DNA of 64,000 nt from NCBI RefSeq assembly GCF_048403405.1, contig NZ_CP183129.1. One strand, given 5' to 3'. The stretch comes from Escherichia coli. Its GTDB lineage: Bacteria; Pseudomonadota; Gammaproteobacteria; Enterobacterales; Enterobacteriaceae. Shown piece by piece: positions 44,901 to 47,900 of the stretch; position 1 is the stretch's first letter, and every line of letters begins with the position of its first letter. The position numbers are program-made.

Positions 44901-47900
44901 CGCGAGTACGGAATCATATAGCTGTTGGGAAGAAAGGATTTTTTAAATATGAAAAGCGATCTCACTATAAAAAATAGATATTGTACAATTCCACAAACGA
45001 AGTTCCGTAAATGGGATGAAATGGACGTTTTACTCTGGAAGTTAGGAAAAAATGATTCGCGTCGCCGTTCAGGAGTATATTATTTAAATGCTTATAAAGA
45101 TGCATATGTACAATATAATAGGGACAAAATAATTAAACATGCATATGCCGCAGGGATTCGTCCAGAGTTATTGGGCGGCGTGGCCTGGATTGAGTCAGGA
45201 GGTATGCCTGAAAATTATAAGTTTCAGATATATGAAACAAAAAGAATGATCGGATCGTTAGATATGCCTGAAAATAAAACATCATTTGGCTCAATGGGTA
45301 TACAAATACGAACCGCAGCGATTACTCTAGGCCTTGACCCTTCAGAATTAACTACCAGAAATCAGTTAGAGTTAGCGACATGCCTGATGGAAGATGATTT
45401 TACCTTTAAAATTGCTGCTACTCATTTAAGAGATCTTGCCCTTTTTGATTATCCCTCTTCGGCAACACTGTATATGACGAATGAGCAGTATATTATGGCT
45501 GGTATTAGATATAATCGTGGTGTTGAACGAGATTTGGGTTTTTTTATTTATTTAATTAATAATTTGCCTGCGCGTGATACAGATGATTATAAATTCATCT
45601 CTTATGGTATGAGGTTGTTAGAGATTAGAGAACATATCAAAAAATTGATCAATGAGTAATCAGAGATGTTAAAAAAACAACTACTATCAATATTTGAAGC
45701 ACTATTATACATAATGCTTACTTATTGGTTAATAGATGCTTTTTTTGCTTTCAATAAGTATGACTGGATGCTTGAGTCGGGAGACAATATTTGCAGTATA
45801 CCTTCCGTTTCAGGCGAAGATCGTATATTGCAAGCAATGATTGCAGCATTTTTTCTTCTGACGCCACTTATTATTCTTATCTTAAGAAAACTCTTTATGC
45901 GGGAAATGTTCGAGTTTTGGCTATATGTATTCACGCTCGTTATTTGTTTGGTTTGTGGTTGGTGGCTTTTTTGGGGACGGTTTATATTTTGCTAATAGTA
46001 AAATCTATGAGAGTCGTTTTAACGGCTCTCATAGACAGAGAAGTTACCAGCTCACCTTCGCCTCAAATCCACCTTGTTCCGCATTCCCAAACTCAACATT
46101 CATGCCATGCAATTTGGCGATTCGCTGGACAATCGATAGCCCAAGTCCACTGCCGGTAGCGGTTTGTCCGGGTGGGCGATAGAAGCGTTCGCCAATTCTC
46201 GCCAGTGCCTCTGGCGTCACACCGGGGCCGTTATCCCTCACGATGAAATTTTCGGCATTCAGCGTGACGTCCACCACGCTGCCCTGTGGACTGTAGCGCA
46301 CGGCGTTATCCAGAAGGTTTCGTACCAACAAACTTAGCAACAGCGGTTGTCCGGTGCGTTTGATGCCGTGGGCATTGAGTGTCAGTCGCACGTCAATTTT
46401 CGCCTGCTGCGCCGTGTGGTAAATATCCATCACCGATGATTGCAGGAGATCTTCAAGCGGGATCTCCGCGACGTCCTGAAGGTTATCCAGTGAGTCCAGC
46501 CGCGATAGCGTGAGCAGTTGATCAACCAGACGAGTAGCACGATCGATTCCGGAATGTAATTGAAGCAGCGCTTTTTTCCGCGCCTGCGGATCATCGTCAG
46601 AGAGCTGCGCAACTTCGGTTTGCACTTTCAGCGCCGTTAACGGGCTACGTAGTTCGTGAGCTGCGTCGGAGGTAAAACGTCGTTCACGAACCATCATCGC
46701 ATGTGTGCGGGCGAACAGTTGATTCAACGACTCAACCAGTGGACGCACTTCGCTGGGTACGCCCGTCGCGTTTAGTGGTTTTTCCGAGTCAGGGTCACGC
46801 ATACGTAGTGCCAGCGCCAGTTTGTTCAGCGGCGCGAGTTCACGACCCAGTAGTACCATCATGATGATTAACATAATCGGCAGTGCGACAAGCCACGGGA
46901 TCAATTGCCCGGCAACAATCGCCAGCGCCATGTCTTCGCGGTATTCCCATTCCTGACCAACAACGATGCGATATTTGCCATCAGGTGAGGTCATCCAGAC
47001 AAAACGCCAGGGATCGTCTTCACCGACCAGTTGCCCGTCAGCAAAACCTTCCCGTTGATAGCTATAGGGAATATCTTCTCCGTTATCGCCATCGTTAAGG
47101 ACCATTCTGCCGTCGTGGGTAAAGATGGCAAAGGTCAGCGCATCGTCATCAACATGACCGTGTTTTAATTTATTTGGCGTCTGTGCCATGCGATCTGCCG
47201 CGTTGATTTCGTTGAGATCGAGCGTACTTAACCGCTTGGCAAACAGCATCAGTTGGGTGTCGAACAACTCATCGACGTTATCCGTTGTTTGTTTCCAGGC
47301 GACAAAGCTGGAAAGCAGCCAGGTCACTGAGGCCAGAATTAAAAAGATTAGCGTCAGCCTGACTCGCAGACTAAGACGTTGGGTAAATTTCATTTCTCAC
47401 CTAATGTGTAGCCAATACCATGAACGGTACGAATAAAATCACTGCCGAGTTTGCGTCGCAGATGATGCACATGCACTTCAACGGCATTACTGGTGACCTC
47501 TTCGTCCCAGGTATACAGTTTCTCTTCAATCAGTTTGCGCGGCAGTACCCGACCAGCGTTACGCATCAGTAATTCCAGCAGGGCAAATTCTTTTGGTTTC
47601 AGTGTTAAGGGTTCGCCAGCCAGCGTGGCGATACGTTTGCCGGGGTCGAGCATGACGTTACCGTGGCGCAGTTCGTTGCTGGCCTGGCCGTTGGTTCGGC
47701 GCATCAGAGCTTCCAGCCTGGCGGCGACTTCTATCAACGCAAAAGGTTTACACAGATAATCGTCAGCTCCCAGACGCAGCCCCTCTACACGTTCCGCTAA
47801 CGCATCGCGCGCGGTCAGGATCAGTACCGGCTCACGCTGACCTTTTTCTCGCCATTCGCGCAAAATATCGCGACCATCCATGCCTGGTAAGGTTAAATCC

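What the first reader, a model, noticed from the sequence alone, without database searches (positions are those of the whole stretch)
45666..45995. 109-aa three-TM protein as candidate immunity protein, possibly the counterpart of K-12 YgiZ
This gene sits 6 bp downstream of the putative effector, on the same strand and with the same AT-rich composition, which is the usual position for a cognate immunity gene. From memory, K-12 has a 110-aa inner membrane protein of unknown function (YgiZ) between mdaB and qseC. If the two are orthologous, YgiZ would be an orphan immunity gene left after loss of the Hcp and effector genes. I cannot confirm the sequence identity from memory.
Basis: inference. 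Interest (0 to 1): 0.65.

Follow-up and report, generated by a model that had tools for sequence, protein, structure and literature searches.

The report
YgiZ: likely T6SS immunity protein
The 109-aa membrane protein is the ortholog of E. coli K-12 YgiZ, and comparative genomics indicates it is the immunity partner of a cell-wall-cutting toxin encoded after an orphan Hcp gene, so K-12 and most E. coli keep an orphan antidote.

Summary
ORF 45666..45995 (+) encodes 109 aa with three hydrophobic helices. It starts 6 nt after the upstream gene, inside a 1.7-kb AT-rich islet between mdaB and qseC. It is YgiZ (Pfam DUF2645), 93% identical to K-12 YgiZ.

In all 26 effector loci read, from 11 genera, on chromosomes and plasmids and at unrelated sites, a small three-helix membrane gene follows directly. 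It is DUF2645 in 25 loci and a pseudogene in one of those. An hcp gene or remnant lies directly upstream in 23. Effector and DUF2645 swap together behind near-identical hcp genes.

Among 5,426 complete E. coli genomes, 1,261 carry hcp+effector and 1,260 of these keep ygiZ contiguous. In the exception both genes are truncated by one deletion. About 3,340 genomes, K-12 included, carry ygiZ alone, and about 830 carry nothing.

The K-12 allele is a replacement, not a clean deletion. Immunity is strongly inferred but untested. I found no literature linking YgiZ to T6SS. It is a new effector-immunity family of a known kind.

The parts
44322..46043 (.). AT-rich islet (hcp, effector, ygiZ) between mdaB and qseC. 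In 'empty-site' E. coli such as DS26-1 this whole stretch is replaced by 5 nt (TACCC).
   Evidence: GC 0.29-0.39 against about 0.5 in the flanks. The empty-site allele matches only window 44218-44321 and then runs into qseC.
44467..44946 (+). Orphan hcp (T6SS tube protein TssD), 159 aa.
   Evidence: NCBIfam TIGR03344 at E 4.5e-59. PDB Hcp chains match at E 1e-21. There are no T6SS core genes elsewhere in the window.
44949..45659 (+). 236-aa putative Hcp-borne cargo effector with a lytic-transglycosylase/lysozyme-like (GH23-like) fold and no signal peptide.
45666..45995 (+). ygiZ: 109-aa, three-helix inner-membrane DUF2645 protein, the candidate cognate immunity protein.
   Evidence: Residues Y15, C43, P67, W100, G104 and C109 are invariant across 16 homologues.
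45753..45827 (+). Codons 30-54: acidic loop between helices 1 and 2, predicted periplasmic. It carries the invariant Cys43 and is the proposed effector-contacting element.
   Evidence: Charge distribution: KK at the N-terminus, RK..R in loop 2, and 5 D/E in loop 1. Loop sequence classes track the classes of the effector segment that follows the catalytic Glu. The topology itself is inferred.
44399..45687 (+). Segment absent from K-12-type (orphan ygiZ) genomes, replaced there by about 160 bp of unrelated sequence.
   Evidence: blastn of the DH5alpha and E1 intergenic regions against the window. The replacement sequence shows no similarity to hcp or the effector.
46004..46035 (.). 14-bp-stem hairpin between the convergent ygiZ and qseC genes, possibly a bidirectional terminator.
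   Evidence: RNA fold -21.3 kcal/mol, z-score -5.5, 0 of 200 shuffles as good. The T-run terminator scan did not call it.
43636..44217 (-). mdaB, the left core-genome flank.
46044..47393 (-). qseC, the right core-genome flank.

Best explanation
The islet is an orphan 'hcp island' encoding a three-gene antibacterial module.

- Hcp is proposed to carry the 236-aa protein as cargo. That protein is made without a signal peptide, so it stays harmless in the producer's cytoplasm.
- When a type VI secretion system (encoded elsewhere in the genome) fires, the cargo reaches a neighbour's periplasm. There it cleaves peptidoglycan glycan strands with a lytic-transglycosylase-type active site whose proposed catalytic residue is Glu82.
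- YgiZ sits in the inner membrane with the N-terminus inside, the acidic 25-residue loop 1 and the C-terminal Cys outside, and the basic loop 2 inside. It protects sister cells by binding and blocking the incoming enzyme with its small periplasmic face, possibly stapled by a Cys43-Cys109 disulfide.
- Strains that lost hcp and the effector, including K-12, B and HS, keep ygiZ as an orphan immunity gene.

Shown here: gene identities, the effector's fold, conserved motifs, synteny, cassette co-swapping and the population distribution. Inferred: toxicity, Hcp-dependent delivery, periplasmic site of action, YgiZ topology, direct binding and the disulfide.
For: 1. YgiZ identity.

2. hcp lies directly upstream with a 2-nt gap.

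4. Synteny: 26 effector loci were read, counting two near-duplicate places. They are the window; L004-L011; L012-L018; L020; L021-L023; L030 and L031; L028; and L032-L034. They come from Escherichia, Citrobacter, Pseudocitrobacter, Pectobacterium, Erwinia, Serratia, Chania, Buttiauxella, Rahnella and Cronobacter plus a candidate Erwinia-like lineage, at at least eight different chromosomal sites and on plasmids. In every one the effector is followed, by overlap or within 10 nt, by a 98-117-aa three-helix gene. That gene is DUF2645-like in 25 of 26, including effectors only 40-43% identical to the query. It is present as two tandem copies in L020.

5. Cassette swapping: Hcp is 93-96% identical but the effector 62-67% and YgiZ 40-49% identical between L011 and L009 (same genome) and between L007 and L010. 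Pairwise identity of effector and YgiZ correlates at r = 0.88. Classes of the YgiZ loop and C-terminus track classes of the effector segment after Glu82.

6. E. coli population: 1,261 of 5,426 genomes have hcp+effector and 1,260 have the effector 3' end contiguous with ygiZ. The exception, NIPH17_0020, has one deletion that removes the effector's 3' half and ygiZ's 5' part together. In total 4,597 genomes carry ygiZ.

7. Asymmetric decay: the effector is split in L022, hcp is truncated in L021, hcp carries a nonsense codon and is fused to a 5'-deleted effector in L030, and hcp is frameshifted in L012. DUF2645 is intact in all of these. An orphan DUF2645 sits elsewhere in Chania.

8. dN/dS between the window and K-12 ygiZ is 0.15-0.31. 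This rests on only 8-16 substitutions.
Against: - No experiment exists, and no literature links YgiZ to T6SS.
- The AF2 model of an effector-linker-YgiZ fusion was poor (pLDDT 54, pTM 0.35) and gave no usable interface.
- Known immunity proteins for peptidoglycan-glycosidase effectors (Tsi3, Tgi2) are, from my own knowledge, soluble periplasmic proteins or lipoproteins. A polytopic protein exposing only about 30 residues is an unusual inhibitor.
- In Buttiauxella gaviniae (L010) the DUF2645 gene carries a frameshift and a stop codon while the effector looks intact.
- K-12 ygiZ is reported to be activated by BglJ-RcsB, an activator known to counter H-NS repression at other loci (PMC3950696). 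If it is poorly expressed in K-12 it may protect little.
- I did not test whether genomes carrying the trio possess a compatible T6SS. The window has none, and distant blastn found no paralogous hcp.
- Pfam SLT does not match the effector.
Confidence: 0.75

Rival explanations
1. Holin-endolysin-like export or lysis pair. YgiZ would be a small three-helix holin-type protein that lets the signal-less muralytic enzyme cross the inner membrane, for lysis or type-10-like secretion. It would not be an antidote.
For: The architecture resembles class I holins: about 100 aa, three helices, next to a signal-less lytic-transglycosylase-fold enzyme. The effector matches PHROG 11932 at E 2e-29.
Against: - hcp is directly upstream in 23 of 26 loci.
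- The gene order is enzyme then membrane protein, with no phage genes nearby.
- tblastn against 50,697 phage genomes finds nothing.
- YgiZ has no charged cytoplasmic C-terminal tail and is predicted N-in/C-out, the reverse of what I recall for class I holins.
- About 3,340 E. coli genomes keep ygiZ alone, and decay removes the enzyme rather than the membrane gene. That is hard to explain for a holin without its enzyme.
- The pair diversifies as a polymorphic cassette.
Confidence: 0.07
2. The SLT-fold protein is a dedicated peptidoglycan-remodelling enzyme that helps the T6SS pass through the cell wall, as MltE does for the EAEC T6SS or EtgA/VirB1 for other machines. YgiZ would be its membrane anchor or regulator.
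Against: - The protein has no signal peptide or lipobox to reach the periplasm of its own cell.
- The module lies away from any T6SS core cluster.
- It is highly polymorphic and swaps as a cassette behind a conserved hcp.
- ygiZ is retained in K-12, which from my own knowledge has no T6SS, and in thousands of genomes without the enzyme.
Confidence: 0.05
3. YgiZ is a general envelope or solvent-stress membrane protein whose linkage to hcp and the effector is incidental co-transfer.
For: In K-12 the gene is under BglJ-RcsB control (PMC3950696). Its overexpression raised sabinene tolerance in BL21 (PMC7181518). It is present in 85% of E. coli genomes.
Against: - The adjacency is kept at unrelated genomic sites and on plasmids in 11 genera, down to 40% effector identity.
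- The family is very small and restricted: 43 clusters at 50% identity among 1.84 billion representatives.
- YgiZ evolves faster than Hcp or the effector and in step with the effector.
- The overexpression phenotype is non-specific.
Confidence: 0.08

Closest known systems
Tge/Tgi pairs: T6SS peptidoglycan-glycosidase effectors with their immunity proteins (P. aeruginosa Tse3-Tsi3, PDB 4luq/4m5f/3wa5; P. protegens Tge2-Tgi2, PDB 4kt3)
   Different: There is no detectable sequence similarity. As far as I know, the Tgi immunity proteins are soluble periplasmic proteins or lipoproteins. YgiZ is a polytopic three-helix inner-membrane protein with no cleavable signal peptide. The module here is linked to hcp and lies outside any T6SS cluster.
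hcp islands with effector-immunity pairs and orphan immunity genes (for example Pantoea agglomerans T6SS1, PMC9796082)
   Same: An effector-immunity pair lies directly downstream of hcp. Immunity genes are retained after the effector is lost or replaced. Tandem immunity genes occur (L020).
   Different: The Pantoea islands sit inside the T6SS cluster and use other families, such as a colicin-like pore former with a membrane immunity protein, and LprI-type lysozyme inhibitors. Here the islet is a free-standing 1.7-kb module in the core genome, and the orphan state dominates the species.
Family 1 lytic transglycosylases, GH23 (Slt70, MltE, MltC)
   Different: Pfam SLT does not match. The protein has an extra conserved N-terminal region of about 45 aa and a variable, low-confidence insert at residues 85-114. 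It has no export signal. Its activity is untested.
Inner-membrane immunity proteins of pore-forming colicins and of membrane-targeting T6SS effectors
   Same: A small polytopic inner-membrane immunity protein encoded next to its toxin.
   Different: Those toxins act in the membrane. This effector has a soluble glycosidase fold, not a pore-former fold. No homology is detected.
YjeO, the second DUF2645 protein of E. coli K-12
   Same: A distant paralogue (hhalign probability 95%, E 4.5e-8) with both family Cys residues conserved. It is also a short gene overlapping an upstream uncharacterised gene, yjeN.
   Different: YjeN shows no similarity to the effector family. No hcp is adjacent in K-12.

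Membership tests
DUF2645 (Pfam PF10840) / YgiZ orthologue | Match to the family HMM over most of its length | tested here: met
   PF10840 at E 1e-10, residues 13-109 against model positions 5-98 of 98. RefSeq names the gene ygiZ, DUF2645 family protein.
DUF2645 (Pfam PF10840) / YgiZ orthologue | Orthology to K-12 ygiZ: same locus and high identity | tested here: met
   The gene lies between mdaB and qseC in both genomes. The proteins are 93% identical, and the DNA is 97.5% identical from codon 8 through the downstream intergenic hairpin.
T6SS effector-immunity pair | Effector gene genetically linked to a secreted T6SS component (Hcp, VgrG or PAAR) | tested here: met
   hcp is 2 nt upstream. 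An hcp gene or remnant lies directly upstream in 23 of 26 loci read.
T6SS effector-immunity pair | Immunity gene immediately downstream and co-oriented, with the pairing conserved across genomes | tested here: met
   All 26 loci have a small three-helix gene directly downstream. It is DUF2645-like in 25 and a pseudogene in one of those, L010. In E. coli 1,260 of 1,261 effector-positive genomes have ygiZ contiguous.
T6SS effector-immunity pair | Effector and immunity protein diversify together as a polymorphic cassette | tested here: met
   (r = 0.88, and swaps behind hcp genes that are 93-96% identical).
T6SS effector-immunity pair | The effector is toxic and the immunity protein specifically neutralises it | not testable with these tools
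   Requires expression and competition assays.
T6SS effector-immunity pair | Physical interaction between effector and immunity protein | tested here: inconclusive
   AF2 on a linker fusion with a paired 15-sequence alignment gave pLDDT 54 and pTM 0.35, with no reliable interface.
T6SS effector-immunity pair | T6SS-dependent secretion, and a T6SS present in the producer | not tested
   The 64-kb window has no T6SS core genes. The rest of the genome was not examined. blastn found no paralogous hcp.
GH23 / family 1 lytic transglycosylase (for the effector) | Lysozyme-like alpha-helical fold | tested here: met
GH23 / family 1 lytic transglycosylase (for the effector) | Catalytic Glu in an E-S motif, plus the MQ and YNxG motifs | tested here: met
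   E82 is invariant in WIE[SAVT]GG. Q119 and R187-Y-N-R-G191 are invariant in 21 sequences. That E82 is equivalent to the catalytic Glu of MltE or Slt70 is inferred from the motif, not from a residue-level superposition.
GH23 / family 1 lytic transglycosylase (for the effector) | Match to the Pfam SLT profile | tested here: not met
   No Pfam hit even at E <= 10. No NCBIfam hit.
Tgi-type immunity (Tsi3/Tgi2-like) | Soluble periplasmic protein or lipoprotein with a signal peptide, homologous to known Tgi proteins | tested here: not met
   YgiZ has three membrane helices and no cleavable signal peptide. It matches only DUF2645 in Pfam and nothing in NCBIfam.
Class I holin | Three helices, charged cytoplasmic C-terminal tail, encoded upstream of an endolysin in a phage lysis cassette | tested here: not met
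   Three helices are present. The protein ends 4 residues after helix 3 with no charged tail. The gene is downstream of the enzyme. There is no phage context. PHROGs gives no hit for YgiZ.

The most novel reading that the evidence does not exclude
DUF2645 proteins would be a previously unrecognised class of polytopic inner-membrane immunity proteins. They would neutralise a periplasm-acting, lytic-transglycosylase-like T6SS cargo effector using only a 25-residue loop, stapled by a disulfide to the C-terminus, or by tethering the enzyme at the membrane away from the cell wall. E. coli K-12, the standard T6SS 'prey' strain, would carry one or two such orphan immunity genes (ygiZ and perhaps yjeO). 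That would make it intrinsically resistant and would have hidden this effector family from conventional screens.
Probability: 0.4. Interest if true: 0.65.

Novelty: new member of a known kind. Interest (0 to 1): 0.55.

Why it matters
It gives a concrete, testable function to YgiZ, a K-12 gene of unknown function present in about 85% of complete E. coli genomes, and to Pfam DUF2645. It also defines a new Hcp-linked peptidoglycan-glycosidase effector family carried by about 23% of E. coli genomes, including ST131, APEC O18 and ATCC 25922.

It shows a species-wide polymorphism with three states: armed, immune only, and naive. That polymorphism should shape strain-to-strain competition in the gut.

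In practice, K-12 and B laboratory strains used as hosts or prey carry the putative antidote. Toxicity and competition assays for this effector need delta-ygiZ backgrounds.

If confirmed, a polytopic membrane immunity protein for a soluble cell-wall hydrolase would be mechanistically unusual.

Tried and rejected
- AF2 on an effector-(GGGGS)6-YgiZ fusion with a paired alignment gave a low-confidence model and no interface.
- I looked for a relic of hcp or the effector in the roughly 160-200 bp sequence specific to K-12-type and E1-type genomes, using blastn-short and blastx. Nothing scored below E 0.1. The origin of the replacement sequence remains unknown.
- Sequence-level annotation of the effector gave no hit in Pfam, NCBIfam, PADLOC or PDB by phmmer and by profile.
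- A phage origin for the effector is not supported. PHROG 11932 matches but no phage genome does.
- YjeN is not a degraded effector.
- Distant blastn with hcp, meant to locate paralogous hcp genes and a T6SS cluster in the same genomes, found only the islet copy.
- Literature searches for ygiZ, DUF2645, PF10840, the RefSeq protein accessions, 'orphan hcp', and mdaB with T6SS found nothing that links this locus to T6SS. The APEC 'orphan hcp2B' operon (PMC5874247) is a different locus, with vgrG2 and XmtU/XmtV.
- I considered a pore-forming or membrane-targeting effector, because the immunity protein is polytopic. I rejected it on the effector's fold.
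Full report
**1. The observation**

ORF 45666..45995 (+) runs from ATG to TAA and encodes 109 aa. The preceding ORF ends with TAA at 45657-45659, which leaves a 6-nt gap. That ORF most likely starts at ATG 44949, 2 nt after the stop of a 159-aa hcp gene at 44467..44946. RefSeq annotates the 100%-identical strain U1 the same way.

The three genes lie in a block of 29-39% GC between mdaB (43636..44217, -) and qseC (46044..47393, -), which are about 50% GC. Hydropathy gives three hydrophobic segments at roughly residues 6-29, 55-73 and 82-105. 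AF2 models three long helices at residues 1-27, 50-77 and 81-108.

**2. Identity with YgiZ**

Megablast of the islet against 5,426 complete E. coli genomes shows the ORF annotated everywhere as 'ygiZ: DUF2645 family protein'. Pfam PF10840 matches at E 1e-10. A K-12 derivative, DH5alpha, has a 110-aa ygiZ at the same place, and the proteins are 93% identical. The differences cluster in residues 4-8 (MLKKQLLS against MLKHKIQT), with three substitutions in helix 3 and one extra C-terminal Tyr.

**3. The neighbouring genes**

The first gene is a bona fide Hcp (TIGR03344 at E 4.5e-59; PDB Hcp chains at E 1e-21).

The 236-aa protein has no Pfam, NCBIfam, PADLOC or PDB sequence match. It has no N-terminal hydrophobic signal. 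Its family is small: 34 clusters at 90% identity, all from Enterobacterales.

Foldseek also ranks MltE first, at probability 0.98.

The alignment shows an invariant Glu82 in WIE[SAVT]GG.PE, a TSxGS..xQ segment, and an invariant RYNRG. From established knowledge of family 1 lytic transglycosylases, these correspond to the 'ES', 'MQ' and 'YNxG' motifs. I therefore read the protein as a peptidoglycan glycan-strand-cleaving enzyme. Its activity is untested.

**4. Is YgiZ its partner?**

I read 26 loci that encode a relative of the 236-aa protein. Two of them (L030 and L031) are near-duplicate places from different samples.

- The window itself.
- Eight loci from a scan of one genome per species.
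- Seven from contig look-ups.
- 'Candidatus Erwinia impunctatus'.
- Three Citrobacter loci.
- Two Citrobacter-like metagenome contigs.
- E. coli NIPH17_0020.
- Three plasmids, from Rahnella, Serratia and Cronobacter.

These loci sit at unrelated places. The site is mdaB-qseC in Escherichia, Citrobacter and Pseudocitrobacter, and pagP-eamA in Pectobacterium. Others lie inside a flagellar region, next to uvrD, or near orn, and several are on plasmids of 39-553 kb.

In every locus the gene is followed, by overlap or within 10 nt, by a 98-117-aa three-helix membrane gene. That gene is DUF2645-like in 25 of 26, including partners of effectors only 40-43% identical to the query. Two were simply missed by the gene callers. 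One locus has two tandem copies. Only the most distant case, Cronobacter at 37% effector identity, has a three-helix protein with no detectable DUF2645 similarity. An hcp gene or remnant lies directly upstream in 23 loci.

**5. Co-diversification**

YgiZ homologues diverge faster (23-65% identity between genera) than the effectors (55-78%) or Hcp. Pairwise identities of effector and YgiZ correlate at r = 0.88.

Shared descent cannot explain the next two comparisons. Two copies in one Serratia genome (L011 and L009) have Hcp 93% identical, but effectors 67% and YgiZ 40% identical. Two Buttiauxella species (L007 and L010) have Hcp 96%, effectors 62% and YgiZ 49% identical. So the effector and the membrane protein are exchanged together behind a conserved hcp. 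This is the behaviour of polymorphic toxin-immunity cassettes.

Sequence classes of the YgiZ loop and C-terminus also map one-to-one onto classes of the variable effector segment just after Glu82.

**6. Population structure in E. coli**

Among 5,426 complete genomes:

- 1,261 carry hcp+effector.
- 1,260 have the effector's 3' end contiguous with ygiZ.
- 4,597 carry ygiZ.

So about 3,340 genomes (61%) have ygiZ alone and about 830 (15%) have neither. In the latter the islet (44322..46043) is replaced by 5 nt.

The single effector-positive genome without complete ygiZ is NIPH17_0020. There one deletion removes the effector's 3' half and ygiZ's 5' part together.

Elsewhere decay is asymmetric. 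The effector is split in L022, hcp is truncated in L021, hcp carries a nonsense codon and is fused to a 5'-deleted effector in L030, and hcp is frameshifted in L012. DUF2645 stays intact in all of these. Chania has an additional orphan DUF2645 at another site.

dN/dS between the window and K-12 ygiZ is 0.15-0.31, but this rests on only 8-16 substitutions.

**7. The K-12 allele**

K-12-type genomes match the window up to 44398 and again from 45688, which is 22 nt inside ygiZ. In between they have about 160 bp of unrelated sequence. That sequence shows no similarity to hcp or the effector at DNA or protein level. It is itself polymorphic: strain E1 is 88% identical to K-12 there and about 40 bp longer.

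K-12 ygiZ is therefore an orphan with a replaced 5' end and upstream region, not the product of a clean deletion. That hcp and the effector were lost rather than gained is inferred from the same-site trio in Citrobacter and Pseudocitrobacter.

In K-12 the gene is activated by BglJ-RcsB, an activator known to counter H-NS repression at other loci (PMC3950696). Its overexpression increased sabinene tolerance (PMC7181518). No paper in the searchable library connects it with T6SS.

**8. Proposed mechanism**

Shown: the gene order hcp-effector-ygiZ, the glycosidase fold with a conserved Glu, the absence of an export signal on the effector, and the three helices of YgiZ.

Inferred:

- Hcp carries the 27-kDa enzyme as cargo.
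- A T6SS encoded elsewhere delivers it into a neighbour's periplasm, where it cuts peptidoglycan.
- YgiZ is oriented N-in, since KK sits at the N-terminus and RK..R in loop 2. This puts the acidic 25-residue loop 1 and the last residues in the periplasm.
- The only two invariant cysteines of the family, C43 in loop 1 and C109 at the C-terminus, would then both be periplasmic and could form a disulfide that shapes a small inhibitory knob.
- An alternative mode of protection is tethering the enzyme at the membrane, away from the cell wall.

My attempt to model the complex failed.

**9. Rival explanations**

- A holin-endolysin-like pair fits the 'small three-helix protein next to a signal-less muralytic enzyme' picture and the PHROG hit. 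It is contradicted by the hcp linkage, the gene order, the lack of a charged C-terminal tail, the absence of any phage context, and above all by the retention of ygiZ without the enzyme.
- A machine-assembly transglycosylase, in the manner of MltE or EtgA, is contradicted by the missing export signal, by the polymorphism, and by the orphan copies.
- A generic stress protein is contradicted by the strict, mobile adjacency and by the very small family, 43 clusters at 50% identity among 1.84 billion representatives.

**10. Evidence against the immunity reading, and gaps**

- There is no experimental evidence.
- In Buttiauxella gaviniae (L010) the DUF2645 gene is a pseudogene beside an apparently intact effector.
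- K-12 ygiZ may be poorly expressed without BglJ-RcsB.
- A polytopic immunity protein for a soluble glycosidase is unusual.
- I did not establish whether a compatible T6SS is present in trio-carrying genomes.

**11. Comparison and novelty**

Functionally this is an hcp-island effector-immunity module with widespread orphan immunity, which is a well-known kind (for example PMC9796082). The effector resembles Tge-type glycosidase effectors in fold only. The immunity protein belongs to none of the known Tgi families. Both families are uncharacterised. I rate it a new member of a known kind.

One unusual feature is the membrane-embedded immunity protein. There is also a practical twist: the standard laboratory strains carry the putative antidote.

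**12. Verdict**

My confidence that YgiZ is the cognate immunity protein is about 0.75. Interest is 0.55.

Noticed in passing
L024 5394-6019 (E. coli K-12 MG1655 4385393-4386018): K-12 has a second DUF2645 gene, yjeO. It is a distant paralogue of YgiZ (hhalign probability 95%, E 4.5e-8, both family cysteines kept). It overlaps by 4 nt the upstream 104-aa gene yjeN, which shows no similarity to the effector. It may be a second orphan immunity gene or a different toxin-immunity pair.
   Followed up: partly
window 44949-45659: The effector matches PHROG 11932 (unknown function) at E 2.2e-29, yet tblastn against 50,697 phage genomes finds nothing. The origin of that PHROG is unexplained.
   Followed up: partly
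L034 2450-3419 (Cronobacter dublinensis plasmid pA84-2): The most distant effector homologue examined (37% identity, IncFIB plasmid, no hcp annotated nearby) is followed by a 98-aa three-helix protein with an acidic loop. That protein has no cysteines and no detectable DUF2645 similarity. It may be a diverged or analogous immunity protein.
   Followed up: partly
L020 2288-4326 ('Candidatus Erwinia impunctatus'): hcp and the effector are followed by two tandem DUF2645 genes of 117 and 114 aa, a small immunity array.
   Followed up: no
protein P0005 (single ENA contig, 3,074 bp): A 314-aa protein joins a 130-aa N-terminal region, which starts like a signal peptide, to effector residues from about 44 to 236 at 97% identity. 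It is either an assembly chimera or a Sec-exported variant of the enzyme.
   Followed up: no
window about 36000-43250 (strain U1 573105-580297): A siderophore-uptake block lies between parE and ygiN: a TonB-dependent receptor, an ABC ATPase, two FecCD permeases, a binding protein and an RpiR regulator. K-12 lacks it. Strain DS26-1 has a different insert at the same junction (MFS transporter, GntR regulator, ADP-ribosylglycohydrolase). The site looks like a variable hot spot next to the islet.
   Followed up: no
L027 589-945 (E. coli strain E1) against L001 2489-2806 (K-12 type): The sequence upstream of orphan-type ygiZ is itself polymorphic: 88% identity and about 40 bp difference in length. 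In strain E1 it is joined to a window-type ygiZ 3' part at 99% identity. This points to recombination within ygiZ and an old orphan state.
   Followed up: partly
L029 1788-2564 (E. coli NRZ14408); H34 (strain FCI56): IS1 elements have removed or interrupted ygiZ in a few genomes. In NRZ14408 only the last 64 nt of the gene remain.
   Followed up: no
window 46004-46035: A 14-bp-stem hairpin (-21.3 kcal/mol, z-score -5.5) lies between the convergent ygiZ and qseC genes. It belongs to the islet, since it is absent from empty-site genomes, and it is probably a shared terminator.
   Followed up: partly
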